DNA of 34,743 nt from Sphaeroforma arctica JP610 (Eukaryota), in NCBI RefSeq assembly GCF_001186125.1, contig NW_014040503.1:17183-51925 (forward strand), given 5' to 3'. The notes beneath the pieces are model-generated. The model worked only from the letters and a program-made list of their open reading frames with translations. It made no database searches and had not been told where the DNA came from. Positions 6,416-34,743 of this stretch are shown piece by piece (position 1 is the first letter of the stretch; the number at the start of each line of letters is the position of its first letter). The position numbers and the translations under genes were made by a program.

Positions 6416-9400
6416 TTAAACTTTGTCTTGGCGAGTTTGCATTTGCGATACTTGGGCCTGGTTTGCATTTTTCTGGCGTGTATGATACGTGCGTGGTAAA
6501 GGCGATGGCTGCGATGATGGAGGTGATTCTGTTGGCTGTAGTGTCGATGTCGATTGCGACTTGGGCAAAAGCTGCGATGGTTGTGTCGACAGTTGATGCT
6601 GCGCATATTGTTGCAAAGGGGTTTGCTGCGACATCTTTATAGGTCCAACGTACCCCTTATGAGCTACCAGTGTTGACGAGCTCTCTGAGTGTGGCTCGCA
6701 GCCTGATTGCTGTGCACATACTCCCAATGCAGATGAGGTGCTCGCCATCTGTTGTTGTGAAATTGGTGTCCCGTCACCTTGCTGTGGGTGTATAGTCAGA
6801 GTGGGTGATGCGCCCTCGAGTTGCAATTGTGACTGCTCGGGTAGCTGTTGTACTTGTGACTCCTGCGCCTTGTCCGGAGGCTGATTCGGGTGCCCTTGCT
6901 GTGGAGGCTTTGCCAATAGCGGAGCGCTATCCAAATTCACTGACGACGACCTTGATACAGGCGGCGGATTCGTAGATTTTGCTTCAACGACGGGTGCTTG
7001 CTCCGTATTTGATTGACTGGTGCGCAAGTGCGAGTCGCTTGCAATGGGCTGTATATGTGTTGTGCTAGGCATCGACTGACAGCTTATATGTGGTGAATCG
7101 CTGGCAGATGCTTGTGGTAGTTCAGAGGACAGCTGGGGCTGATTACTGGACGATGACAATTGTGTGGTCGGCAGTTTGCTTTGATCGGTGGGCGCCAGAG
7201 ACGATGTGGCGGCTAGTTGTAGCTGGCTAGACGACTGCGAATGACCGGGCATTGGCTGTGATTGGCCGGTGGATAGCTGTGCTCCACCGACTGAAGGCTG
7301 TGAAGTATCGGCAGACCATTGCGCCTGAGTAGCAGACGGCTGTGACTGACCTGCTAATGGCCTGGATTGGCCAGCAGGCAGTTGAGATTGACTAGCAGAC
7401 TGGGTTAGGATTTGACGTTGATGTTGAGCGCTGTACTGGGTGCTATTCAATCGACTGCTTTGTTGGGTCTGGTCGTTATTTACCTGACTAATTTGCTGTG
7501 TGCCAGAGTGTGAAATCTGAGGAGAGCTGAGTTTCGTATGCATTAGTCCGTTGGAATGTGCAGTAGACATTTGTGCAGCCCATGTATTTGCTCCTGGTGT
7601 GTTTCGATTACCTGGAGATGCATCTGCGACGCTAGCCCTCACACCCGCCCCATCACCACCTAGAGCGGGTGATGTGGTCAAGGTAGCCGATTTCATGTCA
7701 CGGGCGACCATAGGCTGCACGGCACCTACAGTGCCAGATGTACTAGTCGCTGTGCCATAATTATAGCCAACAGTGGCTGCGGCGGTCTCGCACCCGATTG
7801 CACGCGTGTCTGTCTGTGGTAAATTGGCGTTGGCATTGGTATTATTTGTACCAAGTGTTTGGATATCGGGCGATGTAGACGTAGTTGTAGTGGAATTGTT
7901 GGATGATGTGTACGTTGCATGCATTGAGTGTGCAACAAACTTTGTTTTCGGTACATTTGTAGGCTGTACATTGGAAGTAGTGGATGAAGCGATTGATGTG
8001 TTATAGGTTGCGTGGGGCTGCTGTGGTGGACCTGACTGTGTATATAAGGTTGCTGCTGACATTGAAGCCGTATTTGTTGGAGGTAAATTCGCTGAATGTG
8101 AGCTGATGGCGTGTGCATTTTTGCCTGATGGTATACGTGTATGTTGCGCTGACTGCACTTGTGGCCGTGACAGCTGCTGCACCGACGATGTAACTTCATG
8201 ATTGGTTGATTGTTGTGACAGCTGTGCGCCCGTCACGGGTACCTGGGACACGCCGATGCCAGTATTTGAAAGTGCGCCAATATTTTTATCACTGTACCTA
8301 GCACTACCAGCAATTCCATAACCGTTATTGGGAGTCATGACAGCGGTGCTAACAGTATCAGTACTTTGAGTGTTAGTCTGCTTCGCTTGCTGTGACGCGG
8401 GTTGGTTGACGCGTTGATTTGCGTGCTGCTGATACACAGATGCGCCCGACTGTTTGGACAGGTAGGACGTAGCTGTCGGGGACGCTGTGGATGATGCGCT
8501 CGATCGGCGACTGACGGATACTGATGCACGCCTAGCATCCGTGGTTGTACTCGAAGCTGTGCCTGGAGTATTGGGTACAACACTAGATCCTACACTGCCA
8601 TTGACTCCGGCTCCATTGCCACTCGTCGACTGAAAGCCATTCGAGTATGAAGTTGTCACCCTATTCAGCATGCTGCCACTACTGGCACTGTTTAACGCAG
8701 CACCTGGCGTAGTCGTTACAGGAGTACTGTAATGTGTTTGATAGTTGGCCTGGAACGATGTTCGCTTCCCCACTAACTGTTGACTAACATTCGTAGCTTG
8801 TGTACTGCTCACCACCGTAGGCCTAGTACCGTTTAAAGATTGCCTAGTATTATTTACGGATTGCTTGCTTGTTTTTGTTGACATACTGTTGGCATTCATT
8901 GGCAACACCTGTCCCCCGGTCTGCTTAGGCGTGTTGATGGTCGCGGCGTGATTGACGGAAGCATTGTTGGTGGTGTTGGCAGCGTACTGTTTCCCACCAC
9001 TGGCTGCATATTTGCTTGTAAATTGCTTTGAAGAGCTGGTCGCCGATTTGTTTTCATATGTGGGGTTGGCGTATTTTGTCGCCGGATAGTTGGTCTGCAA
9101 TCCATTCGAATTTGGTATATAAGAATTATTCCTTGTGGAAGCGTATGTATTGGACGTGGGCGTCGGTGCATATCCTGTATTGTACGATGATGCGGCACCT
9201 TCAGTTTGGGGCTGTACAGTAGATGGGGCATACGTCTGCTGCGGAATGGCGGTGGTAGTGGTAGGCTGATACACTGCTGATGCAAGGAGTGGGCGTGTAC
9301 CCCCAGCTGTACCCATTGATGCACCTGTGAACTTATTTATGGCCGGAACAGCCCCACCTACGCCTGATGTGGTCTGATGTGATGTCGTAGCATTCACGGT

Positions 9401-12400
9401 TGTGGTGGCAACTGAGGGCGTGCTCATGGCAACAGAGCCGGTAGACGACGTGCGGCGTTCAATCTTGAACTGCTGCTGCATTTGGCGTTGGTTGGGTTTG
9501 GTATGCGGTTTGGTAGCGGCACGCGCAGTATTAGAGTGTTGTGGATATGCTGCTGGTGAAGATGTGGTGGTAGTCGTTACAGTGTTGTATGTCGGATTTT
9601 GCTGCACTGCACTGACTCGTTGCTGATTCTGATGTTGAGTTAAAGGTGCAGTGTTCAGTTGCATGTTACTCTGCACGTAATTTTTGTGTGCCTGTGATTT
9701 ACTGCCCGACATAGCCATACCGCCGAGTTTCTGACTGTTTTGATACGCATTGTGTGACTGGGTTGGTTTCGGTATATTGTTGGTTGTATACGCGGGTAGA
9801 TTCGTGGACGGCAAGGCTGCAGATCCTTGCAATGGTTTGCTGCCGACATCAGACGTTTCAGAAGAGCTAAATTGTGTGTCTGCTGGTACGGGGGTTTTAC
9901 TGATGATTGTACGTGGAGGGTAAAAGGTCTCGTCCTTGGTGCAGACATTGCCTTCTAGTTTGTATAGCTTCTTGAAGTCCATCACGTAATGATCAGCGCA
10001 AGAGTAATCACCCAGCACAAACTGTTTCATTGTTGGCTCCGCACTGCGCGGTAATTTTACGATGCGCAAAATGCCTTCATATACACTGTTCCGATTAAGT
10101 ACGATGTCCAGTCCAGTTGAACCTGTGCATTGCATGCAAAGAATGACACACAAGTCAATGAATGCAGCGACATAATAAATCTATAGTCGAAGTCCTATTA
10201 AATATATATGCACTGGCAAACACACTCGGACGGTACACACATGAGGCTAAATTGTGAAATTTCAGTTAATAATACTTATAGACGAGAGGAAGCGAGGGAG
10301 AAGGCGGGAGGGGGGAGGCAAACAAAGTCTTGCCACACTCAAAGTGTATCGAGAGTTGTTGGCATACGATCGCATAGGTAGCCACATATATCCACTACTA
10401 ACCGTGCAACCTTGTATGATACACCATGCGAACTCGCATTGTCAACTATACTTATCGCAATATACGCTCGAGCATACAAACTTACCAGCTTTGCCCTGAA
10501 AAACAACTGTTCTGCAATGGATAGCTCCAGTACTGAGTCGCGTTGGTATTTCGGGCCGTGTCGTCGGTAATTTCACTGCCACTCTGCTTGTAACTGGTGT
10601 CTTTGCAGCGCTCGCTGCCCCCACAGCGTTCAACGCATACGGGTCTCGCACTCGAGAACGATTGCATACCGTCACATCCAAGCTCGAATCTGTATATAGT
10701 GACGTATGTATTGCGAAAGTAGGATAAATAGCGAGTTGACTGATTTCAATTTCTGATCTCGAATAAATTCTAATACACCGTCGGCGTGTCTCGTGTCCGG
10801 TGCAAATCAGCAGTTTCGGAAGAGAAGTCGTGCCTCACGGGCACCATATTGATCTCTCTCTGCCCTCATCGCTTTCCTCGCTCAGTAATGTAGTTAAAGT
10901 CATATTATTCAGAGCAAACGAAGCGAGGCTGTAGCAGACATACACAGGGGTCTCAGTACTATCTAACACAATAATGATGCAACAATGGAATAACTTACGA
11001 AGTGGAGACATGTTCGCATCTGTACTCCCTCTGAGGCGTCCCAAGAAATTGAGAACTGCAAATTGGGACTGGGAACGGCCGCTGATACGCTCAGTCCATG
11101 AATTTTGCACTTGGTTTGCGCTCACTGCCTTGTCTTCAGTCGAGACTACAATGCGTGTGGTCACTATGCGTGTGGTCACTGCCTCTGATTTGTAACGCTT
11201 ACTCATAGCAGACTGTAAAAGCAGGAGCACGCGTACAATGGTTGATATATTAAGTTTATCTTGAATTCTTTTTTTATAGTGAAAGTCAATAAATAGGAAT
11301 TTTCATACCATGCAACAGCTACTGAGATTAGAAAAACGTTGAGTTTTCAGACATAAAGACACCACTAAACGTCAATTCCATGCTTTGCAAGTGTGAGGAG
11401 TGACACTATCGAACATCGAACCTATTCCCAAGCAAAACGTGCACATATGACATATATCTAAGGTGCTTCATTCCCAAATTCAGCAGGTAGAAACAAGCAG
11501 GGATAGGCATTAATCAAGATGACAAGAGTCAACCTTTAGGTTTACCGAGTCATTATGAACAGACTTTAGTCGATAATACGCACATGCTATCTACAAACTA
11601 AAGATACAATGTTGATCTATGATGCACAAACTGCTCACATATTGTATATATATACTACGATAAATGGATATGCAGATACGCACAGTCGACACGAGTATAA
11701 ACACCTGCACAGGTATACTCGCTGATCTCTTGAAAGGCTTTTCAACCAATCCCACTTCTGAACCAGAGACATCTTCGCCATCACTTAAACTCATTTCGGT
11801 AATCTCCATTCCTTGATCGAACAAATTTGCAGCGAAGTCCCAATGTACTTCGGCGGATTGCCTTGCAGATGCTTTCTGCTTTGCGCTCTTGCACCTAAAT
11901 CATCAAAATACATCAAAAAACATAATTTTTAAATCGGGACTTCCCAACTTTCGTAGCACAGCAACCACTCACTGCTCATACCTTTGAAGATATGCTCAGC
12001 ATAGTGTTCTGCGGACACTGCGTTTTCAGCGGTGTTAATTTTCTTTGCTCACCTGTTGTAGCTTCCGCGCCAGCGTTGTGGCCCAGGCACCCCTCAGAAA
12101 AATGAAATGACTGATAGACTACACGCCAACAACACATTTTCAACACTCGTAAAACAAAATAATATACATCCACAGCTAATAAATATTTGAGAGTGGACGC
12201 ACGATCAAGCAGTATGATACATATACATACTTTCTGTTGTGCAGCACAGCATGTAGCTTGTGTCTGTTGTAATGTGAACTGATATTTACATAGTGCACAA
12301 AGGGACTCGGATCCAAACACAAGGCTTGCGTGCTGGTGGCCGCGATGACTTTTGCTTCTATCTGCAATAACTCTCTTTCTCCCCACTCCTTCTGCGCAGC

Positions 12401-15400
12401 CTTTAGCGCGATTTCGTGCGCATAGCTGACCACATGCTGAAAAAGAAAATTGTGGTTGTTGATAAGCGCAGCACTTATGCGGGCCTAGTTCTACCTAAGA
12501 AGTAAAGCAAAGGAATAAACCGTGACGGACAATGCGTGCGGACACGTATGGAAGGTATTCTTGCATATAATTACAGGGCAGCAAACATATACGAGTGGTT
12601 CTCCGAACTTTAAAAGGATTGCATCTGTTTTTTTTCTCCACAAAATGAACTTACAAATATTCATAATCAAATGCATTTTACACTGTTGTGTTGGAAAATC
12701 TGGAAGCTTAGTGTACATCGTTATCCTTTTAGGCCTTCGTTATCACTTGAGGTAAAGCATTATTATCCCCAATCAAAGGTAAACCCACACTTTCGGTAGC
12801 TAAAATACTGAGCGCTGAGGCATGCGAAATTATACATTACCTAACATACCGGGCCTTGAATAAGCCAATAACACGAGGAGAAATGCTTAACAACGGTATA
12901 ATGGAAGGTGCTCGCTTGTGCTTCTACATCACACTGATCAATCAATGTTTTTCACTTTCCCGCAAATCTACTTCGACAAAATAAATACCAACATCGCTAT
13001 GAAACCCATACCAATGGTGTTGGCCTCAAGAATACACGCGAGACGGTGGGGGCAGGTAGATCCAATGCGCTCGGTTCGCGATGATCTCGAACTTCTACGA
13101 AAATACCGCCATTAACTCGCTGCAGTACGAGAGTGCATGTCAAATTTTTAATACGCCATATTGTACAATTACCAGTCGCCGTCAGCGCAAGAAGCAAAAG
13201 TTGCTAGAATGTACCCTTCGTGTCTTGATCAAAACTCTCTCCGTACAAAAGTGAGACGTGTGACTCAAGCTTGAGTCACACACTATAGCCTAGTACAACA
13301 TTGAAAATACCAAGATGATATCAAACTAACGATAGCGAAGATGTTCAACAATTTCGACATAGAAGCGTAAGGTTCAAACAGGCACATATCAAAACCGATA
13401 GAAGGCTGACACAGAAATGTAGAACGACAACTTTATGCGACAGAGGTGGCGCTAGTGAAGTTAAGAAGAAGTGATTCACTTCATGTCTCACGCTAATTAG
13501 GGAAACTTCTCCAAAATAGACCTGACCAAAAAGGCAAGTAGCGGCGTCGAGCGCTGTAGTATCGAGATATGGTATGTCATGCCTAAGACTGTACCGAAAT
13601 GTGAATACAACTCAAATCCGTCACAATGTCACAGCAAAAGATCAAATACGACAGTTTTTATGAAAAAAATGGCGTCTTTTGAAAACTGGGGGTACATTAC
13701 ACCAAGCATAATGAAAGTAAAAATAGAAATGTACCTTGACGCCGGGCAAGACGTCGATAAGTGATACGAGCTCCAAAGGGAGAGTACGATTGTCAATCGC
13801 ATCCAATAGTTCGTGGCTGCCGCGGTCGTATGGGAACACGACCCCGTCGGCTTTTTCGCCCAGACTATATCCCGAATAATACAGGTTGATGACACACGAG
13901 GTCTGCACCTATGTGTTGAAAATCAACAATGATTGTTCCTAATTGAGAATTGATGTTGAAAACTATATACATATCAATATGTACCTTCAATTATATTCTA
14001 TTTTCATACCGCTCTTGTGTAGGGAGTTTGATGAAAGGTAGCGGTCAAGAATGATTCAGATCATTAGAAACGCAAGCGATCAGATCTAAAATTTTCAATA
14101 GTCATGCTTTACAAAACTCATAGAAAAAACTGGATGATAGCGGTGTGTAAAGTTGAGAAATGTAATCCCGCTAGGTACTAGTATGGCGGACAACGATATG
14201 TGCGATATATCTATCATTTACCATGTATGAATCCGTGAACAACCTTACCTCCTTTACATTGCCGATGGCATCATATAAACCGGGACCAGGGGTAGTGAAT
14301 TTGAATTTTTCGGCAGAAACACCATTGATGGTCACTCCACCCTCTAGTGCGGCACCCCCTGCAGACCCCACAGCCGCTCGCGGTCCCGGAACACATGCGC
14401 TTTTCATCGCAGGACCTGCCCTATTTGCCGTGTCTGCGGTCGAACTGTCAGAACCACCGCCGTTCTTGTTGACTGTACCATATGAATTGACACTGCAACT
14501 TTCTCGCTCAGGTTGTTTAGATGACGCGATTGATGCACTTGTAGGGGCGGAAGAGGGCATGGAATTAGATTGGCCGTTGTGTGGCAGTGTGTGGGGATTT
14601 GTTTGGGCGGGGCTGAATGCTTGAGGTGGTGTGGTAGTGGGGGTGACACCGGATGTGGCTGTCAGCGTGTTTGCGCCGGGTTGCACTACTTTGGCTTGTG
14701 CGTATACAATTCCATCGGTAGTTTTCCCAGTTGGTGTCGCGTTACTCACGGCCCTGGCTTTGTCGGTGTTGAGTGGTATGGGGTTCATTGCTCCACTCAC
14801 AATTGCAGGATTATTCCCGCTGGTTACACGATTAGCATTGGAAGCCACCATGTTATTGGCACTACTACTAAGAATAGTATTAGCAGCATTACTGGTTGCA
14901 GGCTGTGTGGTGTATGCTGGATGGGTACTTTGAGTCTGACTGTGCGTATTTGATAATCCCGCACCGGTTTGCTTCTGCGTGCCCGAAACCTGTTCAGGGA
15001 ATGAATGCAGGATAGTTAGATTTGGTGATTTCAGAATATTTTGAATAGTTCACGCTATTCAGAAGTGCAGAAACAACATCGTTCAAATTTCGCTGGCATT
15101 CTTGAGCAGTATCCATCAAAGGGACTCTCGGCGAAAAGAATTATGAAAGAAGCATAAATTTGCAACAACCTCGACAATCATTTAGCGATAGTTCCACAAA
15201 CAGGTCCGATGATTTACCATCATAATCTTAAGGCTACTTCAGTAGAGGTAGATAATCACGAACTTACCTGGTACAAATTGCTGCCGACACCGGACACAGT
15301 CGAATCGATTGGCATATACACCCCAGCGAATGGACTGGCACCTCCTAGTACAGAACCTACGAGACCAGCGCTTAGGCTTTTATCACTAGGGCTAAAATTA

Positions 15401-19635: not shown

Positions 19636-19757
19636 CACTCACACACACACACACGCGCACGCTCCCACATATGCATATGTATACATATTATATAAATGCG
19701 ATGCACATATATATCTATATCTATATCTATATCTATATTTTTATTTATCTTTATCTT

Positions 19758-19827
<70 letters not shown>

Positions 19828-20035
19828 CGTATATGTATATGTATATGTATATGTATACGTATATGTCTATGTACATGTATATGTGCAAGTAAAAATATAA
19901 GTATAGGAATATGTACATGTATATATATATGATGCGGGTATATATATATATATATTTATATTTATATTTCATCATTATTTTTAGATTTATTTAAATTTTT
20001 CTATTTATATATATATATATGTATAAGGCTATGTA

Positions 20036-20090
<55 letters not shown>

Positions 20091-20101
20091 GCATACATAC
20101 A
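19636..20101. repeat. Compound microsatellite (CA)n/(TATATC)n/(TATATG)n/(TA)n
   Basis: Seen directly; it produces the spurious YV/MY/IC repeat ORFs. Confidence 0.95.
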
Positions 20102-21258
20102 TGACCAAGGCTTGCACGAAATCTTGAATATTAACCAGGGGTTGTCGAAAGTAACATCAAAAACCTGAATATGTAGACCAAGGCTCAGTATATGGTGAGA
20201 TATACCGTGTTGGCTAGCAAATGTATAAAAATTCGTAAGCTTGTGAATATGTTTTGATACATGTTACAAATCCCCAAAATATTGTGTATATATATCGTAG
20301 CTGTATATTCTCTTGGATATTCTCATATGAAATACTGAATACGAATTTAAAGAAGTACAATTGCCAAGGCAATGGGAAGAGAGCAAGAAATTAAAACAGG
20401 CACTTTGTAGGTAGGTATACATTTGGGTTTCCTCGAAGGAATAACCACACTAAGATGCGTATTTTTATATGTTTTTGTTGAATATCGTATTCGAGAATCC
20501 TACGATAGAGTGGCAAGAAGAGATCTACATATTAAAATCAAGTTATGCTAAGAGAACAATTATCTTTTATCTTCCCAATTGATTGTAGTTGGAAGGACTG
20601 ATAATTTTTCTGTATATGTATATACGTGCACAAGGCGGTGCAACGATTGTCATAATATACCTCACCCACATCACAGCACTTATACCGCTGGGGGAAAAAT
20701 AGGAAAATTGAGGGATACTTATTTACACATATTCGAATATTTACAAATGTACATACGTATGAACCAAAAAAAATTAAAAAAATAGTGAAGGTTCCCAATA
20801 TGTGAAAAAAAAGCTGATCAAACCCGATTTCTCGTCACACGTGTTGTGAGAACAATAATATATTTTTTTTTAAATAAGTTATAAGAAAATAAATCTTGAC
20901 CCTATAACCCTCTATTTTTGTTTTATTTTAGGAGGCTGTGCCTAAAAAGGCAAATACATAGGCTCCAAAAATAAGAAAGCAAGAAAACGGACGAGTCCGT
21001 ACTCCGTACGACAATCCATTGAAGAGTATTTTGGCTATGAGTAACCTCTTTTTTATATATAAAAAATAATTCCATAAACATACGACAGTTGTATTTACGA
21101 AAATTTAAAAAAAAAATGCCTACTTTTACTAAAATATATGAACAAAAAATCTTCGTTTTCGTCGTGGAGACGAGGACTCTTATGAGTCTCCTCTCGGTGG
21201 TATATTTACTGACGAGAGGTAGTGCACAAAATACATTCGCAAGAAGTAGACAACTATC

Positions 21259-22977: not shown

Positions 22978-23840
22978 ATGCCGTGGATTGTAACCATGAT
23001 GGACGGAAAGAATGAGGAGGCCGTTGCCCATCAGGCTCATCTAGACAAATTAACTCGTCTTCTAGACAAAGAGGAACTGGGAGAAGATGACGAGATCGAG
23101 AATGAAATGAGTGAAACAGAGGTAGAAACCAACTCACCAGAGGAAGCGGGGGAATGCCCTCCCGGTATGTGCATCGAATGTACCGACCAACCCGCATCCC
23201 GGTCTTGTGTGGAATGTCAAGATGATTTCTGCGAGGTGTGTGTGGACTCAATACACCGGTCAGGTACGCGTAAACGACACAAAATCAATGCCATAATGGG
23301 TGTTGAAGTTGGGCAACCGCAGCTCTGTGACAATGGAAATAAAGCCGATACTAATAATCCAGTAGAATTGGATTCGGTAGAGCTTGAACTTGAGAATGGT
23401 AATAAAGTTTTGGGAGGCATTGAAGAGGCCAAGGTACATCGTACCGAGGCACACCAAGGGCTGGGAGAATGGTTCGTAGAACGATCCAAATCGATTCCGT
23501 TGAGATTAACTTTCGAAGAACGAAAATATCTGAGGTTAGTTGAGGCGGCTCTGAATGTATCAGAATACACTGAAAAGGTATGCACACTCGAGGAGCACCA
23601 AATAATGTTGGTAGCATGTATAGCTATGATGTATTGAGATGTTCAATTTGTACTGCCCACACTGCATACCTAGGAAGATTTGACTGTCTAAGAGTCAAAC
23701 GTATTTTGTTCTTGCTCACAACACTTCATAAGATCTGACTCGTAAGAGGCATTTGAAACAGCTACCTATTATTTTACCGGCACATTTGATAGCAGAATTT
23801 GATAGTGAACATGTGCAAACTATACTATACTATATATATA

Positions 23841-23882
<42 letters not shown>

Positions 23883-23915
23883 CATGCACATGTATATATA
23901 CATATACATACACAT

Positions 23916-23974
<59 letters not shown>

Positions 23975-24129
23975 ATATATAGTATGTATTACACACACAC
24001 GTATATATTATACACAAATATATATACNNNNNNNNNNNNNNNNNNNNTACGTGTACGTGTGTATGTATATTGTATATATGTATGTGTATATGAGGATATG
24101 TGTATATGTGTGCTTATGTTGATATATAC

Positions 24130-24161
<32 letters not shown>

Positions 24162-27100
24162 GTATATTTGTGTATGTATGTATGTGTTTGTATATATATA
24201 TATATATACATGTATGTGTATGATCTGTAATCTATGTATGTATATGTAGTATATATATATATATATATACATATCCTCATATACTCATATACATATATAC
24301 AAATATACCTATATATGTATACGTATAAATATACATATACAAATATGCATATACACGTATACGTATAATTATATATATTCATATTTATATTCATATACTT
24401 ATACATGAACGATACATATACATTTACATCTACCTAAAAATACACAATTGTTTTGTGAATACGCGAACTGAACTAGCTAATCGCAGAATAAACGATTGTA
24501 GATGGTATATACTTGTTTGAATTGACCTAGTAATTTTGGTACGCTGACAACGATGTTATAGGTGGACATATGCTACTTCCGGTCGAGAGCCAAGCGAATA
24601 GTAGAGCAAGTTCGAGACATCTGTGCCATTCTGTCAGGGCTACTGGTTTCTTGCGACTATAAGGCAGGTCAGACCCTAGTGAAGGATCGGGAATTTAGTG
24701 AGAATGCCGACTTCTTTCAAACCGTCTTCGAGATCGGCCGCAGATATAAAGTTTTAAATCCAGGTATCTGTTGCTGAGCTTTGTTTAAAACCACTTTTTT
24801 TATTCACTCGTATTACGATGGGGACAATTTTGATTTATGTGCAATTGATTGTGAGCACATTATATATGTACATATTTAATAAACTATGTCGCAGGGTATC
24901 CAAGAATTATACATGGATTGATTTCTTGCTCATAGTCACACTTAGCACGTGTCTTTTCGAGATGGTAGATCGGACTATTCCGTTTCTATCGAATGTCTGT
25001 GAAATCATAAATGTGTTTTTGCACAAGCTCGTTATTTCATTCGCCACTTGTGAGTTCTAAGCCTCAAAATACCTCATCAAACACACGTTTCATCTGTATG
25101 GTTGAACTTGTATACGTTTGCAATGACATCTATACTCAGTCGACCCTCGGAGTACGTGGTAAAGTTATAGGCTGCAGATGTGTTTGTAGTGATCACTAAG
25201 GCACCGATTGGTCACACAAGTACGGAGTAAGCGTAATTAGTCTCGATTTACCCGAACTCAAAAACTTGTTATATTCCGATTCTACGTCCCAGAGCGCATG
25301 CGATCGTCCTACGGAAAGCTACTGTATTTTCTGCAAGACACGCAAATACCTGAAATCAAGGAGTTACTAGAGTTTTCGTGCGTCAAACCGATGAAGACGG
25401 TCTATGGATATCTGGAAGCGAATGGACTATTGAATTTGCTGCACGATGACTTGTTAGAGACGGCTACACATGAAATACCTGCGCATGGACAATCGCGTAG
25501 AGATGTGCAGAGAATGATAAAGGAGAAAAATATGGCGGTGAAGCGAATAATACGAAGGTGTGTCAGCTCTCTCTAATTCGTACAATTGCAGTCACACGCT
25601 GCAGCGTTACAGCGTGTAACGAATAATGTGAAGGCGGCAGACACTGTGTGTTGGATTAATATAAGGGTACATAACTCTCTAATGTCGACACACCGTGTAA
25701 CGAATAATGTGAAGGCGGTAGACACTGTGTGTTGGATTAATATAAGGGTACATAACTCTCTAATGTTGACACACCGTACACGTACTGATTCTCTAGAAAT
25801 AATGAAAGACCACATCACACCGTAAACAGGCCACATAGCACACCACAAACTCACCCACATAGCTCACAACAACACACCAGACCAGACCATTCATTGCTAC
25901 ACACCACCGCCGCACACTCACGCCACACCATACCACACCACACCACACCAAAAACTCACCCACATGACCCACAATAACACACCACCGCCGCACACTCACG
26001 CCACACCATACCACACCACACCGAAAACTCACCCACATGATCCACAATAACACACCACCGCCGCACACTCACGCCACACCATACCACACCACACCACACC
26101 GAAAGCTCACCCACATGACCCACAATAACACACCACCTCACCAGACTATACTATTCATTGCTACACACCACCACCGCACACTCACGCCTCACCACACCAC
26201 ACCACACCAAAAACTCACTTCCTGAGTAAACGGTTGCATCAACTCATCACATATATTTTTCCTCTCGCTGCGTCGCAACACTATCAGGTATGCCGATCCT
26301 GCAAATGGAATCAAAGAAGATGATATCGAGCGATGCTTGGTGTCTATTGGGGACAACAATTCGTTTCTAAGCTACAATAGAGATCCATGTGATGAGTTGA
26401 TCGGTTATCTCCGGCACTATTTCTCACGCTCCTCCATCGATCCTGCATTCTCACTAGCTATCGCTTCTGGTATGTATTTCGTTTTACAATATTGTCTCTG
26501 TACCACGCACAGGTGACGATCACCAAGACCTCATGTCAAGATTTACACACCCAAACGTGCGGCTCAAGAACCTATTTGAAAGTTACTTTATCTATAGCAT
26601 ATCCGCGTGTGTGTCGGCGTAGTGTGTCATTTTAAAATAAAAGTAACTTGGCAATGAAAAATCAGCGCTGCTATGTATATTTATTGCGATTACGTACGCA
26701 TCCGCTTCACTGCCATCAAAACTCGTCCTTCATCGCTGACGCCTTTTATCCTTTGTCTTCCACGTCTGCAGGTAAACAAGGAGCACGTTTAACACACTCA
26801 CATACTCGACAGTACGACTACGTACTACAATCACTTTCACTGTGGCGTGAAATTTTGCACGATTTCTTTAATTTATGGCGATTAGCGGAGGCCGATCTCT
26901 TGAGGGAAAACAACGGTTATAGATTAGTAGACACTGGACAAGGATTGAATCGTATACAGAGTTGTAATAACACGTCAAGGCTCATGCATGCGATTTTGAA
27001 CAAGGTGAGTCCTGATGTACGCATGATAATACCTATTAGTTGCAGTATGTTTTATCCACACTGTAGATATAAATTGAAGAAGGTAGCCCTCGAATATACA

Positions 27101-28835
27101 GTTAGTTGTTGTTGCTGGGGTTCGATGCTCTTGTTGTTGCTGTTCTGCGTTGTCAACAAATCGTTTGCATGCTTCGATAGAATTTTCCTCTGACAAAAAA
27201 ATTTCTTGAGCGCCCATTTCTGTTTTTCCAACTAAGGAACTTTTCTGAGCGTGTATTCGCCGTAGTGTTTGGATAATCCACACATCATCTACAGTATAAC
27301 TGTTTGTGGCGACAAACCCACCACTTGTGCGTACATTTGGATATATACTTGAGCACACTAGAGAGAAGACTCATGGAGACATGCGCGCACTGCATGCTCG
27401 TATATTACACAAAGTACTGTCCGCCTCATTGATGGAGTCTGTACGCTTTTGAACGTTGGGTGATCATTCGAGAAACATCATATGTCCCAATATTAACCAA
27501 ATGTGTTTCTGGATTTGCACACATTAACACGGGTCACACTCTGCCAATATTGAATATTGCTAGGCACAAAGGAAGGTGGATTCTTGGGTAGGATCGTCCG
27601 TGATCCATATGGGAGATCACAATGTTCCAAATGCCTTCATGTTCATCGACAAGGTACTTTTATGTTTAGTATTACCCTTGTAGATGTAGACCTAGCTGAG
27701 ATATAGTATTTCACAACTTCTGCAACTCCACTGTTTTTGAATTCTAATTTTGGTCAGGATTACTAGACTTTCCAGCTTTAACGGCTACCACGCACATGCC
27801 AATTTATAGACCTGTTTTCGGCGAGTATTCATAGCGGTGTGCAGGATAGGATGGTCGCGATATATGTACCGTATATGCTGAAATTTCCAACAAACTCTTC
27901 TCCAACCGCAGTATACACAAGTGGCTCGCATTCTGAATCCAATCGTGATCTGTCTGAGGAAGCTAGACAGCCTCGAAAATGATCCAGGTGTGTGAAAAAA
28001 ACGGGGTCAGGTGTGCTTAGGTGAAAGTGCAGGTGAAAGATAGGTGCTTCATGTAGCATCATATTCAATTCTGCTTAAGTTACATCGGTTTTATAGCGTC
28101 TATTATGACATTCGATTTTCGAATCATCCCGCATATGTTTTCTGTAGCATGAACATCTTAAATTGTATTTAGTAGATTCCCTCTTGCGTAAAGCGATGAT
28201 TTAACATAATGCGAGTCTTTGTGCATTTTTACCTTTTATGCAAAGAAATGAGCAAGATGGTCGTTTGTCACATATTACAAAACGCTATTTCTCGAGAGAC
28301 GTAGTTTCAGTTCAATAGGGGTATCCTTTCTGGAATTGAATGGATAGCTTTGTGATTTTAGGAGGTGTACAGTCTATGTGAAGCCGCGACGTGCTTCGTC
28401 GTACTGTATTGAAATTTTGTTTCAATTCAATTACACTAATAATCTCACAAATGCTTGTCGCTGTTATCTCCAGGTCTTGCCGAGTATATTAAAACAACGT
28501 TCACGAGTGTCGATAATTGCAAACGTGTGATATTGAATGATTTCTTCAAGTTCGCCTTCGATGGTAGTGGTGCAGGTGCGTATATATATCCGCGGTTTCG
28601 CTAATTGTTTGTTACGTGCCTGCATATCGTCTTGCTAGTCAGCTTTTGCTGTTGCTACAGTGTCTAACTCCTTCGATATCGCTTCTCCACATCAACAGAT
28701 AATTTTTTCGATGCCGGTTCTTGTATCGATGGACGTCTGACTTCCGCCTGGAATTGGTGTTCACGATTGGAAAAGAAGCGATATTACCCCGTGTTTTTGC
28801 TTACGGGCTTCGTAGGATTCGACGGAGAGTTTTAG
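22978..28835 (+). CDS. B-box-type zinc finger + DUF2009 (UPF0652 family) protein, 9 exons
   Basis: All introns are GT-AG and phase-consistent. Exons: 22978-23577, 24562-24763, 25293-25557, 26288-26469, 26772-27004, 27564-27653, 27912-27987, 28474-28575, 28699-28835. N-terminal CIEC...[12 protein letters not shown]...H...RKRH. Family motifs [96 protein letters not shown], and C-terminal GFVGFDGEF*. Confidence 0.92.
23821..24430. repeat. TA/TG-rich compound microsatellite in intron 1, containing a 20-N assembly gap (24028-24047)
   Basis: Seen directly. Confidence 0.95.
25613..25777. repeat. 81-bp tandem duplication (2 near-identical copies) in intron 3
   Basis: CGTGTAACGAATAATGTGAAGGCGG... 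begins at both 25613 and 25694. Confidence 0.9.
25838..26220. repeat. CA-rich minisatellite (about 75-bp unit AAACTCACCCACATGACCCACAATAACACACCACCGCCGCACACTCACGCCACACCATACCACACCACAC) in intron 3
   Basis: About 4-5 imperfect units seen directly. Confidence 0.9.
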
Positions 28836-29024
28836 CACCCACTTATTGATTCAGATGTTCGCCAACTGAGAGACTTTTAAAGTATACAATACTGACTCAT
28901 ATCGAAAAGTAGAAATACTACGTCGTCGATCGAGGGCGGGATGTTCTGTGTTGAAATCAAGTTCCCGTAGCAACACCAGCTGGTGTGCTAGTAGAGTATG
29001 CTTTGTAAGAGCTATTTGTTCACA

Positions 29025-29267
29025 TGTAAGTTGTTTCAGAGCAGTCTAAGTTTATTGTCTCATGTTCGGTCGCTTTGGTTTACTGTACGAAAGTGAACAC
29101 AGGCAACGGACGTGGACAGTATTTTTACTCATAGTCAGTGATGAATCGTTTTCTCGTTGGTCGACACGAAAGTGGCGTTAGAAATTTCGTAACGGAACTT
29201 GGTTTATACATACAGGTTTGGAGTAATAAGTCAAAGGGGTTTAGTGTTGACAGCACATGGTTTTACA
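29025..29267 (-). repeat. Putative 3' LTR (about 243 bp)
   Basis: Minus strand reads GGATGGGGGGT (PPT-like, 29278-29268), then TGTAAAA from 29267, TATAAA at 29208-29203, AATAAA at 29056-29051, and ends TTACA at 29025 (TGTAA/TTACA inverted termini). Alternative end at 29004. The 5' LTR is not in the window for comparison. Confidence 0.6.
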
Positions 29268-29569
29268 ACCCCCCATCCGATTTGCAATTGTGCAAAATTG
29301 GATACAAACAAGTGGCGTCAAGGTAGACCGTGCACGGGTAAAGTATTGAGTCAGTATATAGAAGTATGTAGTCAGTATATAGGGGACATTAGAACGTCGA
29401 AAAGTGACTGGGACCACTGAGGGAGAGTAGCCTGGTATTTGTTGCGCCAGTCGAGGATTTGAGAAGCCCGATATATACGGGATCAGTAGCGAGTGCATAT
29501 GCACACTTAATGGCAAATTTCAAGTTCACCAAGCGATGAGGTTAGGTATGCTGAGTAAGTAATTCAATA

Positions 29570-30900
29570 TCAATATATGAAAGGATGCATTATCCCTTGT
29601 ATGACGATGTTAGTCAGAAAGCGCAATAAAAATGCGCATCGCAGAGTAGATTTGTATCGAAAAAGGATAGCTGCAGACCATTGCTTGAAGGCCTTGTCAA
29701 TCTGGGCCTTTTCATGCTCAGGAGCATCGCGAAATGGACTTTGACAATAAAGCCAGCTTGTATACACATAATTTCTACGAGTACCAGAGATGGCAGATTT
29801 AGGGATTCCAACAGGTTCCCGAAAAGCCTTTAGCTTAGAACGGTGAACACGATATGTGTTCTTTGTATTACAATCTTGGATTGTCTGCATGGTCGGAGGG
29901 TCAAGGGAAGTGACTGTAGTGGGGCCACCCCGCAAAGTACGATCAGAAAAAAATATGGATTTGAGCTTTTAAAATACCGAGCGGCCAACAGCAATAAGCG
30001 GAGCATCGTAGCCGTAGCGGTTAGCTTAAGTAGCTTGAGTGGTTCGTGCACGAGTGTTTTGTTCCCAGACAGCACGGTCAGCGTCAGTACGTTGTGGGAT
30101 AAGGGTAAGAGGAGATTCGCCAGGAGATAAATCCTCGATAATAATGGCCTCCAGGGCACGATTATTAGAATGGTGGTACTGACGACCAGTTACCAGAGTA
30201 TATGATGTAACATTAGTAACAGTGTTCACACTGGAATTATGATCACATGCAAATTTTCAAGAATGAAGGTCCCAAATTGTTTGGTAGTGATTTCGTTCAA
30301 TCCAGACGAGGTGGTATCAATGAATTTCTCAACTAGACCATTGTTACAATGATCCACAACAGAAACAACATGGCAAAGAGTGCCTTGGAATGTAGACTAA
30401 TCTTTGAACAGGCGAGAATTAAAGGAACTTACATCATCATCAACGTATTCGGCAGTATATGCCCATTGTTCAGTTTGTTGTTGTAACTGCAAGACAACTT
30501 CAGAAGCAGTCTTGCAGTATGACGCATTGAAGCTATATGGACCAAACGGGTATGTTCGTCTATACAAAGGAATTGATATTTATAATCCCCAGGGATGATC
30601 GGCATAACCTTGAAGTCCAAATGACGCACAGCTCCTGAATATTTGCCACGATCAGGTTGGATTAAGAGACCCATAATCGGGCCTGGAGCATCTCATTCGA
30701 GGATGTAGCCCAGGCACGTGTTGAGAATGCGTAGAATGAAGTCATGTTTGAGAGTCCAAGCAAACAAATCAAGCATCAAGCGCAATAAACGGGAAGGGCG
30801 GAGGCGATCCCGGTCTATGCAGACTGACCAAATGGGACAAAGGACACGCTCCGGCGTAATCGTGCGGTTGTGCAACATATAAGATGTCTGGGAGAAGGCA
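29570..30900 (-). pseudogene. Retroviral-type DDE integrase remnant (HHCC region, rve core, GPY/F module)
   Basis: RLLRLMLDLFAWTLKHDFILRILNTCLG (zinc-binding region), VRHLDFKVMP...YKYQFLCIDEHTRLVH (first catalytic Asp region), and GPTTVTSL...TIQDCNTKNTYRVHRSKLKAF (GPY/F-like). Broken by frameshifts. Confidence 0.8.
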
Positions 30901-31638
30901 AGGATTGCCTGGGGTAAGGTAATACCCTCATTGCCCGCAGTTGGAGGTTGAGGGACAACAGTATATTTAGTTTGGAGCATCGCAGTGCACTCATCATCCG
31001 CAAGATTATGAGAAACGGGATATGGACGTGCAGCCGGAGGTGGAGGGAGCATATACTCCAACGGTGGAGTGGGAGGTTTTTAAGGCGCCATACATTCCAT
31101 CGGTAGAGCCTCCAAGGGTGGCAATTGTAAGCCAGGATCGTCTACTGAATCATTGTTCAGCACGCGTTCCCCATCTGGATCAGAGTCCCATTGAAGTGGT
31201 GGCACATACGAAACTAAATCAAGGCAAGTCACCGGTATGGGAGGCGGTGGGGAAATCTGCGTGTCTTGGTGAGGGGACCGAGAAATCTCGGACCCACGGA
31301 GAGTAGGGGTCACAGGTGGAGTGACACTAGTAGGAATCAAAGAGCACGTTCTGGGCATCAATTGGTCAGGTGAATTATGTGCCTTCGTTGGGCGGGGCGA
31401 CGATGGTGGGTTAGACCAACGCCACTGCCGAGATTCAGCAAAGGACTGGCGGAGGGCATTACCCATACATGATTCTTGTTCTGGGTCGAAAGTAGAGGCA
31501 GATGGTCGCTTCTTAGTCAAGGCCAAACTAGAAGTAGGAGACAGGAGGACTGCATTGAGGATCACTGGAGGAGAACCTGTAGTACCCACTAGATGCCAAA
31601 AGAACAGTTTAGAGATAGGCAGTGGGGAAGAAGGCTTG

Positions 31639-32029
31639 TCACTGGAAAGAGGGCCAGCGTGACCAGGGAGGACAACCAAGCAGGGTGCTTTCATCCTTGA
31701 AAAACATATCATGGGTATGTGTGAGGACAAGGGAAGCTTCAATAAGATGGTCGAAGAATCGGCGCAAATAAGAGGAATTTGTCCAATATGGCATGATGGC
31801 CAAAGCTTTACAGCTGGTGGGGGCTTGATAACGCCGGAAGAAACTGTTGTAACAAGACCAAGGAGGATGAACAAGGACAAGTATATTGTCAAGGTTAATA
31901 GAATCAGCAGTTTGTCCCATAATACCCCTAAAGCTTAAGATGATGACAACTTCGACTGGCAAAGAGATCAAAGTGGGGACCCCTCTATTTCCGAACCAGT
32001 AGCTGAAACCAGGCTGGGTGTAGCTTCAA
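31639..32029 (-). pseudogene. DNA N6-adenine methyltransferase-like (DIRS1/phage Dam-type) domain remnant inside pol
   Basis: The frame from 32029 reads LKLHPAWFQLLVRK*RGPHFDLFASRSCHHL (DLFAS at 31969-31955). After a frameshift it continues QTADSINLDNILVLVHPPWSCYNSFFRRYQAPTSCKALAIMPYWTNSSY...LGCPPW (HPPW at 31869-31858). Confidence 0.75.
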
Positions 32030-32139
32030 TAGTATGCCACAAGATGAGAAGAAAGAGAAGCCACTATAAGAGGTCTGGGGGCTTGGACAGGAGTAGCACG
32101 GGAAATACGGCGAGATACAAAGAGCATCAAAGGATCAAG

Positions 32140-32600
32140 GGTAGCAGGTCCCCGAGAAAGCATATCAGCTATAAAGTTCCAGTCACCAAGAATGTGACGT
32201 ATGTTAATGTCATAACGTCGAACTATCTCCACAAGACGCGAAAGACAATCACCTCGAGTTGAAGGAGGAAATGTCAATTATCATATAGTGGTGAGAGAAA
32301 GAGATAATGGACATGTGGTCCGTTCAAACACTTAGTGAACGATGGTTTGGGGTCAGAATCATCTCATCTATGTCAACTTTATAAGCAATAGCCATAGTTT
32401 CTAAGTCAAAGATATGATAACGGGGTTGTGCCGCGTTGAGTTTAGTTGATCGGTTTGAAACCAGGCGAAGGCAGTCAATGCCATTTACACAAAAGCCGTC
32501 CTTTTTAAGATCAACGAGGGGTTGAGGAACCGGTATGTAACTGGGTAGGGTAGGAAAGAAGTACAGCTTTCCGAAGAAACATCCATTTCCGTTTTGCTAG
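32140..32600 (-). pseudogene. Ty3/Gypsy RNase H remnant
   Basis: STKLNAAQPRYHIFDLETMAIAY (about 32450-32380) and SRLVEIVRRYDINIRHILGDWNFIADMLSR match the Ty3 RH motifs Y...ELE.LAI and I.HI.G..N..AD.LSR. Confidence 0.85.
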
Positions 32601-32961
32601 AAACTCCTTCTAAGTTCGGCGAGGCTTCTTGTTGAGCGGAAACTGAAGGGACCATTCTACAGAATGCTGTAGATGTCGCTCAGGAAAGAAGCTCGAACAA
32701 GGTGGTTCAGGAGGAGGGAGGGTACGTTTATGGGAAGTTTGATACTTGAAATTGTCACGAAGGGCCTCATCAGCAGCTTCCGCTTATTTAGCACGAAGCG
32801 GTTACGTCCAGTCACGAGATAAGGGGGTGGAAGAGAAATCAGGTGGGGAAATCCGCACAAAACGACCAGAACCAAGCCCCACAGGGTACGCTTCAACAAA
32901 AAAGATAGAGGTGATGAGCTGGGCAGGAGTGACCAATACAATGTCACCTTAGATGGCATTG

Positions 32962-33720
32962 TCAATAAGAGGCTTTCAGCCGATCCTGGCTGATAGTTGT
33001 ATAACTATGGAGGGTTTCTCGACCATAATAAGCTTTGGTGGAGGCACACATAAGGGCTAAATGGGTTTTAGACGCACGCAGGCGAATACCAGCAACATAG
33101 TAGATTTGGGCATATTGAAGAAGATCAGTTAAATGGCGGAGCAAAAAGTCAGAACCCCAGTGAGCCATAGACCCATCATCAACGAAGTGTTAAAAATATC
33201 AGGGAGTTTCTGAAACGTCTGGTCAAAAACTGATTGCAACTGAAAAGTCATCATTTTAACGCCAAAAACACCAGCAATTGGGCGCCAAACTTCACCTTTA
33301 GAGGTAATCCAGATAAGGCTGTCACGGGAAAACAGTGTACGAATTTTGAGCTGGTTAAATGAGCAGGCCATGTCCATAGTAGAGATAGTATCGCCACGGC
33401 GGATATGATCAAGATATTCTTGTTCTGTGGGCATGAGTTAGAGATCAACCCTGCAATTGTCATTGTTTACTTTATAGTTTGACAATACCACACGTCGTTA
33501 ATAGACGTGGGCTTAACACGTCGATCCTTTCGTGCGAGTACAGCACTGGACATCCATGGACTGAAAAAATTTAGACTCCCAGCAAATCAAGTCTTGATTC
33601 TTTGGTTTATATATGATTTGGCGTGGGACTGGTTTGTCTATGAATCTCCATTTCAACTTTTCAAGTCCATGAATAGTTATGGTGGTCTGTGTCGTAGACA
33701 ATTTGATTGAAAGCATCTTT
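32962..33720 (-). pseudogene. Reverse transcriptase remnant
   Basis: MPTEQEYLDHIRRGDTISTMDMACSFNQL (motif A), GVFGVK (motif B), then after a frameshift HFVDDG (YxDD equivalent; FVDD at 33186-33175) and AGIRLRASKT. Confidence 0.85.
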
Positions 33721-34743
33721 TATTTCTGTAATATATACAGGTAATTCGTGTAGAAGGAAAGTCAAGTCATTTCTGCCGGTCCAGTTATATTGTTCGACCT
33801 CACTCGGTGTTTCACGATATTTACGATGAAACTCAAGAACAGCGGCTTCATCGAATTTTGCCATAATTAGACGTATATGTGACAGATAGGACTAAGTTTT
33901 TGGTCTCGTAAAGGGTGAGATGATTGTTTTCATCATATATTGTTTTAGAAGTGTATCAGTCACTTGTTACGTGGGAGAAATGAGAGAGCGTCCTCCAAAG
34001 ACGTTCATTTCAACGGAGTCAATCGAAATGGGCTCAAGAAATTTTGTTTCAACGAGGGACTTATTGATAAGACCTGGGATGTGTAGAAATACGGCCTCCG
34101 GTCAGTCTAAAATATCAAGATCAATTGAGATAATACATTGGTTTTTATTTGTATTTTAAATAATTTAATACAAGCTCTTTTTCCAATATTTCCAAAGTGT
34201 TCTAAATTCACTTCGATGGCTCCAATAGCCTGAGTATTTGGTATGATTCATCTACTTGGACCTATTTGAGACATTAGTAGATGTAGGATATTATAAACTA
34301 AATTTTATAATCTCCGAACTACTACTTATAGATTTTGGTCCTCCCGCCAATCTCCAAAATCCAATAAGTCTTTTTCTTTTTTTAACTTTTCTTCAGATGG
34401 AACTTTATTTATATCAGCTAATGTATTAACGTAACGCGACTTACGTTATTATGTCTATCTACAAATTAGGCATGTGGTCATGAACACCTAGTACTTCTAG
34501 TGAAAATTATTCAATAAAGAACAGCTAGAGGTACGCCCTGTGTGATCGAGGATATTTAGGCTCTTAACAAGAGGCAGTCCCGATCATTCTTACACAAGCT
34601 ACCACTGCTAAATCCTGACTGACTAAATTGTATTTTAGTTTAATATAGTTTGAAACCTAGTAATTTCCATCGAAGTTTACATGGATGCCCAGGAGATCTT
34701 GAAAGTTAAGATTGGTGACTGGAATCGAGATGGTATTTCAAAA

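What the first reader, a model, noticed from the sequence alone, without database searches (positions are those of the whole stretch)
31639..32029. Ty3/Gypsy-type LTR retrotransposon carrying a DNA adenine methyltransferase domain between RNase H and a DDE integrase
Seen in sequence: directly after the RNase H end motif (ADMLSR) the minus strand encodes, across two frameshifts and a TAG at a probable Trp, L.P.WF..L..(W).GP..DLFAS..HHL, then TADSINLD...VLVHPPW, then ALAIMPYW and GCPPW. The ORF track hides the DLFAS half. Established knowledge: this motif series (SAM-binding DLFA, catalytic [NDSH]PP[YFW], hydrophobic strand + P.W) characterises the phage Dam-like N6-adenine MTase found after RH in DIRS1 elements, which use a tyrosine recombinase. 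Here the downstream enzyme is an rve/DDE integrase with a GPY/F module, a PPT and a TG...CA LTR. Inference: this is an integrase-type LTR lineage that captured an amino-methyltransferase and could methylate its own cDNA, for example to mimic host 6mA-marked active chromatin or to evade defence. This copy is dead. I cannot establish novelty without a search.
Basis: partly seen in the sequence, partly recalled or inferred. Interest (0 to 1): 0.9.

Follow-up and report, generated by a model that had tools for sequence, protein, structure and literature searches.

The report
Dead retrotransposon carrying captured adenine methyltransferase
This broken jumping gene carries, between its RNase H and integrase, a remnant related to the adenine-methyltransferase domain of DIRS elements; its active ancestor likely used it to methylate its own copies, but such elements were described in a 2026 preprint.

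Summary
On the minus strand a decayed LTR retrotransposon reads RT - RNase H - methyltransferase (MT) - Pro/Ser linker - integrase - PPT - LTR. The catalytic half of the MT has one real relative among 1.84 billion proteins: the MT of an intact DIRS-like Pol (E 1.3e-4; Pfam Dam E 6e-5). That Pol's RT and RNase H do not match the window; Ty3/caulimovirus ones do. So the MT is DIRS-derived in a Ty3-type backbone. The design is already described as 'DAM-LTR' (bioRxiv 10.64898/2026.05.21.726589, main text read), with the same 6mA-mimicry idea, and this scan met it before on other DNA. No second family copy was found, so a nested DIRS fragment is unlikely but not excluded. Activity is unproven: the preprint's E. 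coli assay was negative, and the relative's predicted fold is nearest PCIF1, an RNA cap methyltransferase (Z 12.7; E. coli Dam 9.3), which the preprint's main text never mentions. This copy is dead. Its 3' end appears to have become a host gene's 3' UTR.

The parts
34682..34743 (-). probable protease remnant, cut by the window end
   Evidence: inference from position and the LLGIH motif at 34695; no Pfam hit
34082..34681 (.). unrelated 600-bp TGTA...TACA repeat nested in the protease region
   Evidence: termini; loose ends at 34081/2 and 34681/2 and summed contig depth about 2,000-4,000 times the flank
33172..33506 (-). reverse transcriptase remnant (FVDD motif at 33189-33172 in another frame)
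   Evidence: profile of 3 Ty3 + 1 caulimovirus Pol hits 33494-33195, E 1.6e-4; no Pfam RVT_1 hit
32143..32467 (-). RNase H remnant in two frames, ending ADMLSR
   Evidence: Pfam RT_RNaseH E 7.5e-5; profile hits 32467-32294 and 32241-32143
32036..32151 (-). linker of about 40 codons between RNase H and MT
   Evidence: sequence
31931..32035 (-). MT, SAM-binding half (LHP..F..L....G.P..DLFAS), frame 2, in-frame stop at 31987
   Evidence: best of 69,320 six-frame positions for the matching stretch of P0008, though its score alone is not significant (99 of 300 shuffles as high); DLFAS is a published DIRS1 motif (PMC2685390, passages)
31639..31930 (-). MT, catalytic half (HPPW, IMPYW, GCPPW), frame 0
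   Evidence: phmmer E 1.3e-4 to P0007; tblastn of P0008 E 4e-8, 28% over 81 aa at 31893-31660; two-DIRS profile E 1.7e-7
30921..31638 (-). Pro/Ser-rich linker, nearly open in frame 1
   Evidence: 1 stop against 18 and 10 in the other frames over 721 nt
29816..30920 (-). DDE integrase remnant in three frames (HLDF 30623, YVDDD 30447, NNGLVE 30345, C-terminal GP/VHRSKLK motifs)
   Evidence: Atlas: 'Maverick integrase (Fragment)' 0.92, rve 14% cluster 0.89; Ty3 integrase profile E 0.011 at 30337-30176; no Pfam rve hit
29269..29278 (-). polypurine tract
   Evidence: sequence
29004..29267 (-). 3' LTR; start clear, end at 29004 is a candidate (5-bp inverted termini)
   Evidence: no second LTR in the window

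Best explanation
This is a dead Ty3/Gypsy-type LTR retrotransposon remnant with a DIRS-related Dam-like methyltransferase domain between RNase H and integrase, likely captured once into the Pol polyprotein, where in the active ancestor it would have put N6-methyladenine on the element's own new DNA. Shown: domain order, homology of the MT to DIRS Pol, the different ancestry of MT and RT/RNase H, and the decay. Inferred: (1) MT, linker and integrase were one reading frame with RT-RH; (2) the domain travelled in the virus-like particle and met the cDNA or RNA-DNA hybrid in cis; (3) the 6mA was then kept by the host enzyme AMT1 and held new insertions in active chromatin. Steps 2-3 are the preprint's model, not tested here. 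Identity as a DAM-LTR-type element: about 0.85. The DNA-6mA mechanism given that identity: about 0.55.
For: Single true hit among 1,835,955,588 proteins is a DIRS-like MT. Its MT matches the window (E 4e-8) while its RT/RH does not; a second DIRS Pol's RT/RH also misses the RT and RH places. Ty3/caulimovirus RT-RH profile puts its top three places on the window's RT and RH. The MT lies on the same strand, 41 codons after RNase H, spans just the DIRS domain, and is followed by a nearly open 721-nt frame leading into the integrase. No tyrosine recombinase hit in six frames of 27500-34743. The preprint reports five DAM-LTR lineages, more 6mA and more expression on DAM-LTR copies in two ichthyosporeans, and AMT1 in 9 of 13 DAM-LTR species.
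Against: No Pfam, PHROG, PDB-sequence or phage hit for the window's own MT, even read through with X; an intact DIRS MT itself reaches only E 0.021 to Pfam Dam. No second family copy at 80% or more in the host's runs or in protein searches. The preprint's DAMs gave no 6mA in dam-minus E. coli. Iyer et al. (PMC4738411, passages) place the DIRS MT in the PCIF1 clade and call it likely inactive. The catalytic motif here is HPPW; the nearest relative has NPPW. Both trees have very long window branches. The YR blank is weak because Pfam also misses this copy's RT and integrase.
Confidence: 0.47

Rival explanations
1. Same captured domain, but catalytically inactive: a PCIF1-like fold that binds the element's RNA or host factors.
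For: Iyer et al. state this for DIRS MTs. Negative E. coli assay. HPPW here and FPPF in the L085 DIRS Pol. Earlier scan notes report degenerate motifs in other DAM-LTRs (unchecked).
Against: The nearest relative keeps DAFA and NPPW and the window keeps DLFAS and PPW. The preprint finds Asn-Pro-Pro in almost all DAMs it sampled and 6mA enrichment on DAM-LTRs.
Confidence: 0.23
2. The domain was an active RNA N6-adenine methyltransferase that modified the element's own RNA (cap-adjacent or internal A) for stability, translation or escape from silencing.
For: Model of the relative's MT (pLDDT 81.8) matches PCIF1/CAPAM best by both methods: Foldseek E 3.5e-6; VIA Z 12.7, rmsd 2.8, 141 aligned, against E. 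coli Dam Z 9.3 and T4 Dam 8.8. Next come the rRNA enzymes DIMT1/KsgA/Erm. PCIF1 is a cap m6Am writer with an NPPF motif (PMC6318281, passages). This would explain the negative DNA assay.
Against: A fold shows no substrate, and the model is of a relative (28% identical over 81 aa), not of this protein. It covers only residues 493-661 of zebrafish PCIF1; cap recognition also needs PCIF1's helical domain (recalled). Sequence ties the domain to phage PF05869 proteins. The 6mA enrichment on DAM-LTR DNA would need another cause.
Confidence: 0.2
3. A one-off fragment of a DIRS element inserted or recombined into an ordinary Ty3 copy; no lineage carried it.
For: Only one copy is known; the element already holds one unrelated nested repeat; the MT is frame-broken at both ends.
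Against: The segment is exactly the MT domain, on the coding strand, at the place DAM-LTRs are reported to carry it; no DIRS RT/RH or YR remains around it. The related copy in run X20 also has part of it (31648-31804), but that copy looks orthologous, so it is not independent.
Confidence: 0.1

Closest known systems
DAM-LTR retrotransposons (Fernandez-Moreno et al., bioRxiv 10.64898/2026.05.21.726589; whole main text read, figures and supplements not seen), esp. the Ichthyosporean lineage
   Same: Ty3/Gypsy-like backbone with a DIRS-derived DAM domain; no chromodomain found; proposed 6mA mimicry of active chromatin. The text gives DAM between RT and integrase for the Chloro-Ochrophyta clade.
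   Different: This copy is dead, single-copy and too diverged for Pfam Dam (the preprint's screen used HMM E 1e-5), so it may have been missed. It has HPPW rather than NPP. The text does not state where the DAM lies in the ichthyosporean lineage, and the host here is not established.
DIRS1-like retrotransposons (PMC2685390, PMC3783388, passages)
   Same: MT domain right after RNase H with DLFAS and PP-aromatic motifs; nearest sequence relative is such a Pol (P0008).
   Different: DIRS lack protease, DDE integrase and LTRs and use a tyrosine recombinase; their MT ends the Pol ORF. Here a linker, integrase, PPT and LTR follow, and RT/RH are Ty3-like.
PCIF1/CAPAM cap-specific adenosine N6-methyltransferase
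   Same: Closest solved fold to the relative's MT model; same clade according to Iyer et al..
   Different: PCIF1 is a single-copy host enzyme of about 480+ resolved residues with a WW domain; the element holds only the core of about 140 aa.
Phage Dam-like family Pfam PF05869
   Same: Relatives P0007/P0008 hit it at E 6-7e-5; collinear DLFA-x-N and NPP motifs.
   Different: The window's piece itself does not hit it; in a small tree it sides with DIRS MTs (92/96, long branches). T4/E. coli Dam are a more distant fold match with an inserted recognition domain.

Membership tests
DAM-LTR retrotransposon | DAM-like domain detected by HMM at E <= 1e-5 | tested here: inconclusive
   No Pfam Dam hit; profile of two DIRS MTs gives E 1.7e-7 in the window, but one of them was found with this query
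DAM-LTR retrotransposon | DAM domain related to DIRS DAMs | tested here: met
DAM-LTR retrotransposon | RT of Ty3/Gypsy type, not DIRS type | tested here: met
   Ty3/caulimovirus profile E 1.6e-4 and Pfam RT_RNaseH; two DIRS RT-RH miss; tree agrees but branch length 7.3; only 6 references
DAM-LTR retrotransposon | DDE/rve integrase | tested here: met
   Atlas 0.92/0.89, profile E 0.011, D-D-E motifs in order; each is weak alone, no Pfam rve hit
DAM-LTR retrotransposon | Two LTRs with target-site duplication | not testable with these tools
   5' end lies beyond the window; no genome held; PPT and TG start seen
DAM-LTR retrotransposon | DAM present across copies of the family | tested here: inconclusive
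   No other copy at >= 80% in runs X10, X2; only a probably orthologous piece in X20
Ichthyosporean DAM-LTR lineage | Ichthyosporean host and DAM grouping with that clade | not testable with these tools
Host guess is recalled, untested
Ichthyosporean DAM-LTR lineage | No chromodomain | tested here: inconclusive
   None in Pfam scans, but the copy is too decayed for a blank to count
DIRS1-like retrotransposon | No protease, integrase or LTR; tyrosine recombinase present | tested here: not met
   Integrase remnant, PPT and LTR start present; no YR hit
Active N6-adenine DNA methyltransferase | Intact frame with SAM-binding and [NDSH]PP[YFW] motifs | tested here: not met
   Motifs present but split by frame changes and a stop
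Active N6-adenine DNA methyltransferase | Methyl transfer to DNA adenine | not testable with these tools
   Preprint's E. coli assay negative for other members

The most novel reading that the evidence does not exclude
The 'DAM' of DIRS and DAM-LTR elements is a stripped-down PCIF1-type RNA methyltransferase that marks the element's own RNA, not a DNA enzyme; this highly diverged HPPW copy is a further independent capture that Pfam-based screens miss.
Probability: 0.15. Interest if true: 0.65.

Novelty: new member of a known kind. Interest (0 to 1): 0.27.

Why it matters
It is one more, very diverged example that integrase-type retrotransposons take up the DIRS methyltransferase, and it shows that Pfam-threshold screens undercount them. 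The open question is what the domain methylates. The fold evidence points to RNA substrates that the only published assay (genomic DNA in E. coli) did not test. This dead copy cannot answer that.

Tried and rejected
Blank searches: longer relatives of the MT half, 0 of 31 candidates; of the RT piece, 0 of 53; near-length relatives of the read-through MT, 0 of 1; Pfam, PHROGs, PDB sequences, phages; RT and integrase pieces against PDB sequences; exact look-ups, 0 of 9 and 1 of 8. P0006, the top hit, was dropped: five weak repeats of a bacterial secretion-signal protein summed. One viral locus and 11 metagenome loci matched only 9-32 residues of the Trp-rich tail and were judged chance by eye, not followed. 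Of 170 viral loci from four motif patterns, 13 had both motifs in one open frame; 5 looked like MTs (1 DIRS Pol, 4 phage Dam) and 8 were dropped by eye. The L085 DIRS MT alone did not match significantly, nor did a DIRS+phage profile (top rank, E 0.29). The single-sequence model of the MT half had pLDDT 39.7 and gave no fold match. No RNA holder listed on record. Codon positions of differences to run X20 show no third-position excess (integrase 3 of 12, linker 8 of 28; 40 of 64 differences were listed, none of those in the MT), which is too little to judge selection. A tandem-element reading of a PBS-like TGG at 28978 was rejected: the DNA beyond is the host gene's last exon on the other strand. 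Kuafuorterviruses (PMC11673190, parts 1-2 of 3 read) carry no MT in the text read. Paper searches for earlier descriptions found only the preprint for MT inside LTR elements.

Full report
Observation. RNase H ends with ADMLSR at 32169-32152; frame 0 runs on for 41 codons to a stop at 32028. The SAM-binding half (LHPAWF 32023, DLFAS 31969) is in frame 2, with a stop at 31987. The catalytic half (TADSINLD 31911, VLVHPPW 31878, ALAIMPYW 31806, GCPPW 31677) is back in frame 0. The motif series occurs once in the window and in 0 of 400 simulations (pattern written after the fact). DLFAS is a published DIRS1 pol motif (PMC2685390, passages).

Is it a methyltransferase? Direct library scans were blank. 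That says little: an intact DIRS Pol (P0005, locus L085) reaches only E 0.021 against Pfam Dam. phmmer of the 97-aa catalytic half (P0001) over 1,835,955,588 proteins gave 2 hits at E <= 0.001. One is a repeat artefact. The other, P0007 (E 1.3e-4, 23 of 81 identical), hits Pfam Dam at E 7.4e-5. Its cluster mate P0008 is a 635-aa DIRS-like RT-RH-MT protein (DIRS-like because it matches P0005 at E 8e-51 against E 2e-16 or weaker for Ty3 Pols). The SAM-binding half was not in the query, yet the matching stretch of P0008 scores best on the frame-2 piece at 32035 out of 69,320 positions. That score is not significant alone (99 of 300 shuffles) and the same stretch of P0005 does not pick it; its weight is its position. 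The Atlas gave leads only: a cluster with 14% Dam at 0.89 and one with 49% PCIF1_WW at 0.86. A model of P0008's MT built on a 14-row alignment (pLDDT 81.8) is a Rossmann amino-methyltransferase. Its best match is PCIF1/CAPAM (E 3.5e-6; Z 12.7, rmsd 2.8, 141 aligned), then DIMT1/KsgA/Erm (Z 9.2-10.3), E. coli Dam (9.3) and T4 Dam (8.8).

Is the backbone an integrase-type LTR element? A profile of three Ty3 and one caulimovirus Pol puts its best places at 33494-33195 (E 1.6e-4), 32467-32294 and 32241-32143; Pfam RT_RNaseH hits at E 7.5e-5. The RT-RH of neither DIRS Pol matches these places, while P0008's MT matches at E 4e-8. Small trees agree (RT with Ty3/caulimovirus, MT with DIRS) but the window's branches are very long. 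After the MT comes a Pro/Ser-rich frame with 1 stop in 721 nt, then integrase motifs in order. Support for the integrase is modest but convergent: Atlas 'Maverick integrase (Fragment)' 0.92 and rve 14% at 0.89, profile E 0.011, no Pfam rve hit. A PPT and a TG start follow. No tyrosine recombinase or chromodomain shows in six frames of 27500-34743, a weak blank for so decayed a copy.

State of the copy. Every domain is broken. In DNA runs X10 and X2 the internal part lies at flank depth, with no second copy at 80% or more. A 600-bp TGTA...TACA repeat with thousands-fold depth sits at 34082-34681. Run X20 (organism C) holds pieces 92-96% alike, one in the MT (31648-31804), and differs by one-base indels near two places where the window's integrase frame breaks. 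Its longest piece joins the element's 3' end to the same host exon, so the insertion is probably orthologous and older than the split of the two organisms (inference). Capture by a lineage is therefore inferred from the anatomy, not from several copies.

Host. A eukaryote with spliced genes (B-box + DUF2009); one host ORF is held by NCBI, UniRef and EukProt. No genome was held. An ichthyosporean such as Sphaeroforma is my guess from recalled genome features and is untested.

Mechanism. See Best explanation. I commit to cis N6-adenine methylation of the element's new DNA by the Pol-borne domain (overall 0.47), against an inactive binding module (0.23), an RNA methyltransferase (0.2) and a nested fragment (0.1). 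Whether His at the catalytic place is ancestral or decay cannot be told from one copy.

What is known. Fernandez-Moreno et al. (bioRxiv 10.64898/2026.05.21.726589; whole main text; figures and supplements not seen, and they may list this element and show the domain order) describe DAM-LTRs as first reported there: at least four transfers from DIRS, an ichthyosporean lineage without chromodomain, more 6mA and expression on such copies, AMT1 in 9 of 13 host species, and a negative E. coli assay. Their main text has 0 mentions of PCIF1, CAPAM or m6Am, whereas Iyer et al. (PMC4738411, passages) place the DIRS MT in the PCIF1 clade and think it inactive. DIRS MTs are covered in PMC3783388 and PMC5890265 (passages). 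The scan's index lists 23 earlier findings with these words in at least 3 genomes, 8 shown, two with the same RH-MT-INT order (unchecked notes, seen after I had found the preprint); none on this genome or by sequence.

Verdict. Real feature, known kind, dead copy. Interest 0.27; the only open value is the substrate question and the hint that screens miss diverged members.

Noticed in passing
window 28698-29755 (+): The host B-box/DUF2009 gene ends 170 nt from the LTR (last exon after an AG at 28696-28697, stop 28833-28835). A contig of run X20 joins this exon boundary to sequence up to 29718, a contig of X17 ends at 29755, and AATAAA lies at 29625 and 29746. The dead element's LTR and 3' end seem to form the gene's 3' UTR in antisense. 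The runs are RNA by guess only.
   Followed up: partly
window 34082-34681: 600-bp repeat with TGTA...TACA ends and near-matching 5-6 bp flanks, summed depth about 2,000-4,000 times the flank in runs X10 and X2: a very abundant solo LTR or MITE.
   Followed up: partly
window 31934-31080 (-): Frame 1 is open for 284 codons and overlaps the whole catalytic half of the MT in frame 0. It may be chance in this pyrimidine-rich stretch; overlapping ORFs are typical of DIRS.
   Followed up: no
window 33266-33172 (-): The RT is unusually diverged: VFGVKMMT in place of the usual PFGLxNAP (recalled; seen) and FVDD; Pfam RVT_1 misses it.
   Followed up: partly
window 6416-10180 and 14171-15049 (-): Long Gln/Ser/Thr-rich host ORFs (1254 and 292 aa) with no clear Pfam family.
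   Followed up: no
L085:4770-6938 (-): An intact DIRS1-like RT-RH-MT ORF with an overlapping upstream ORF inside a viral contig; its catalytic motif is FPPF.
   Followed up: partly
window 19640-20130, 23800-24450, 25830-26210: Long (AT)n/(AC)n and CACCA-type tandem repeats, the latter two within the span of the DUF2009 gene.
   Followed up: no
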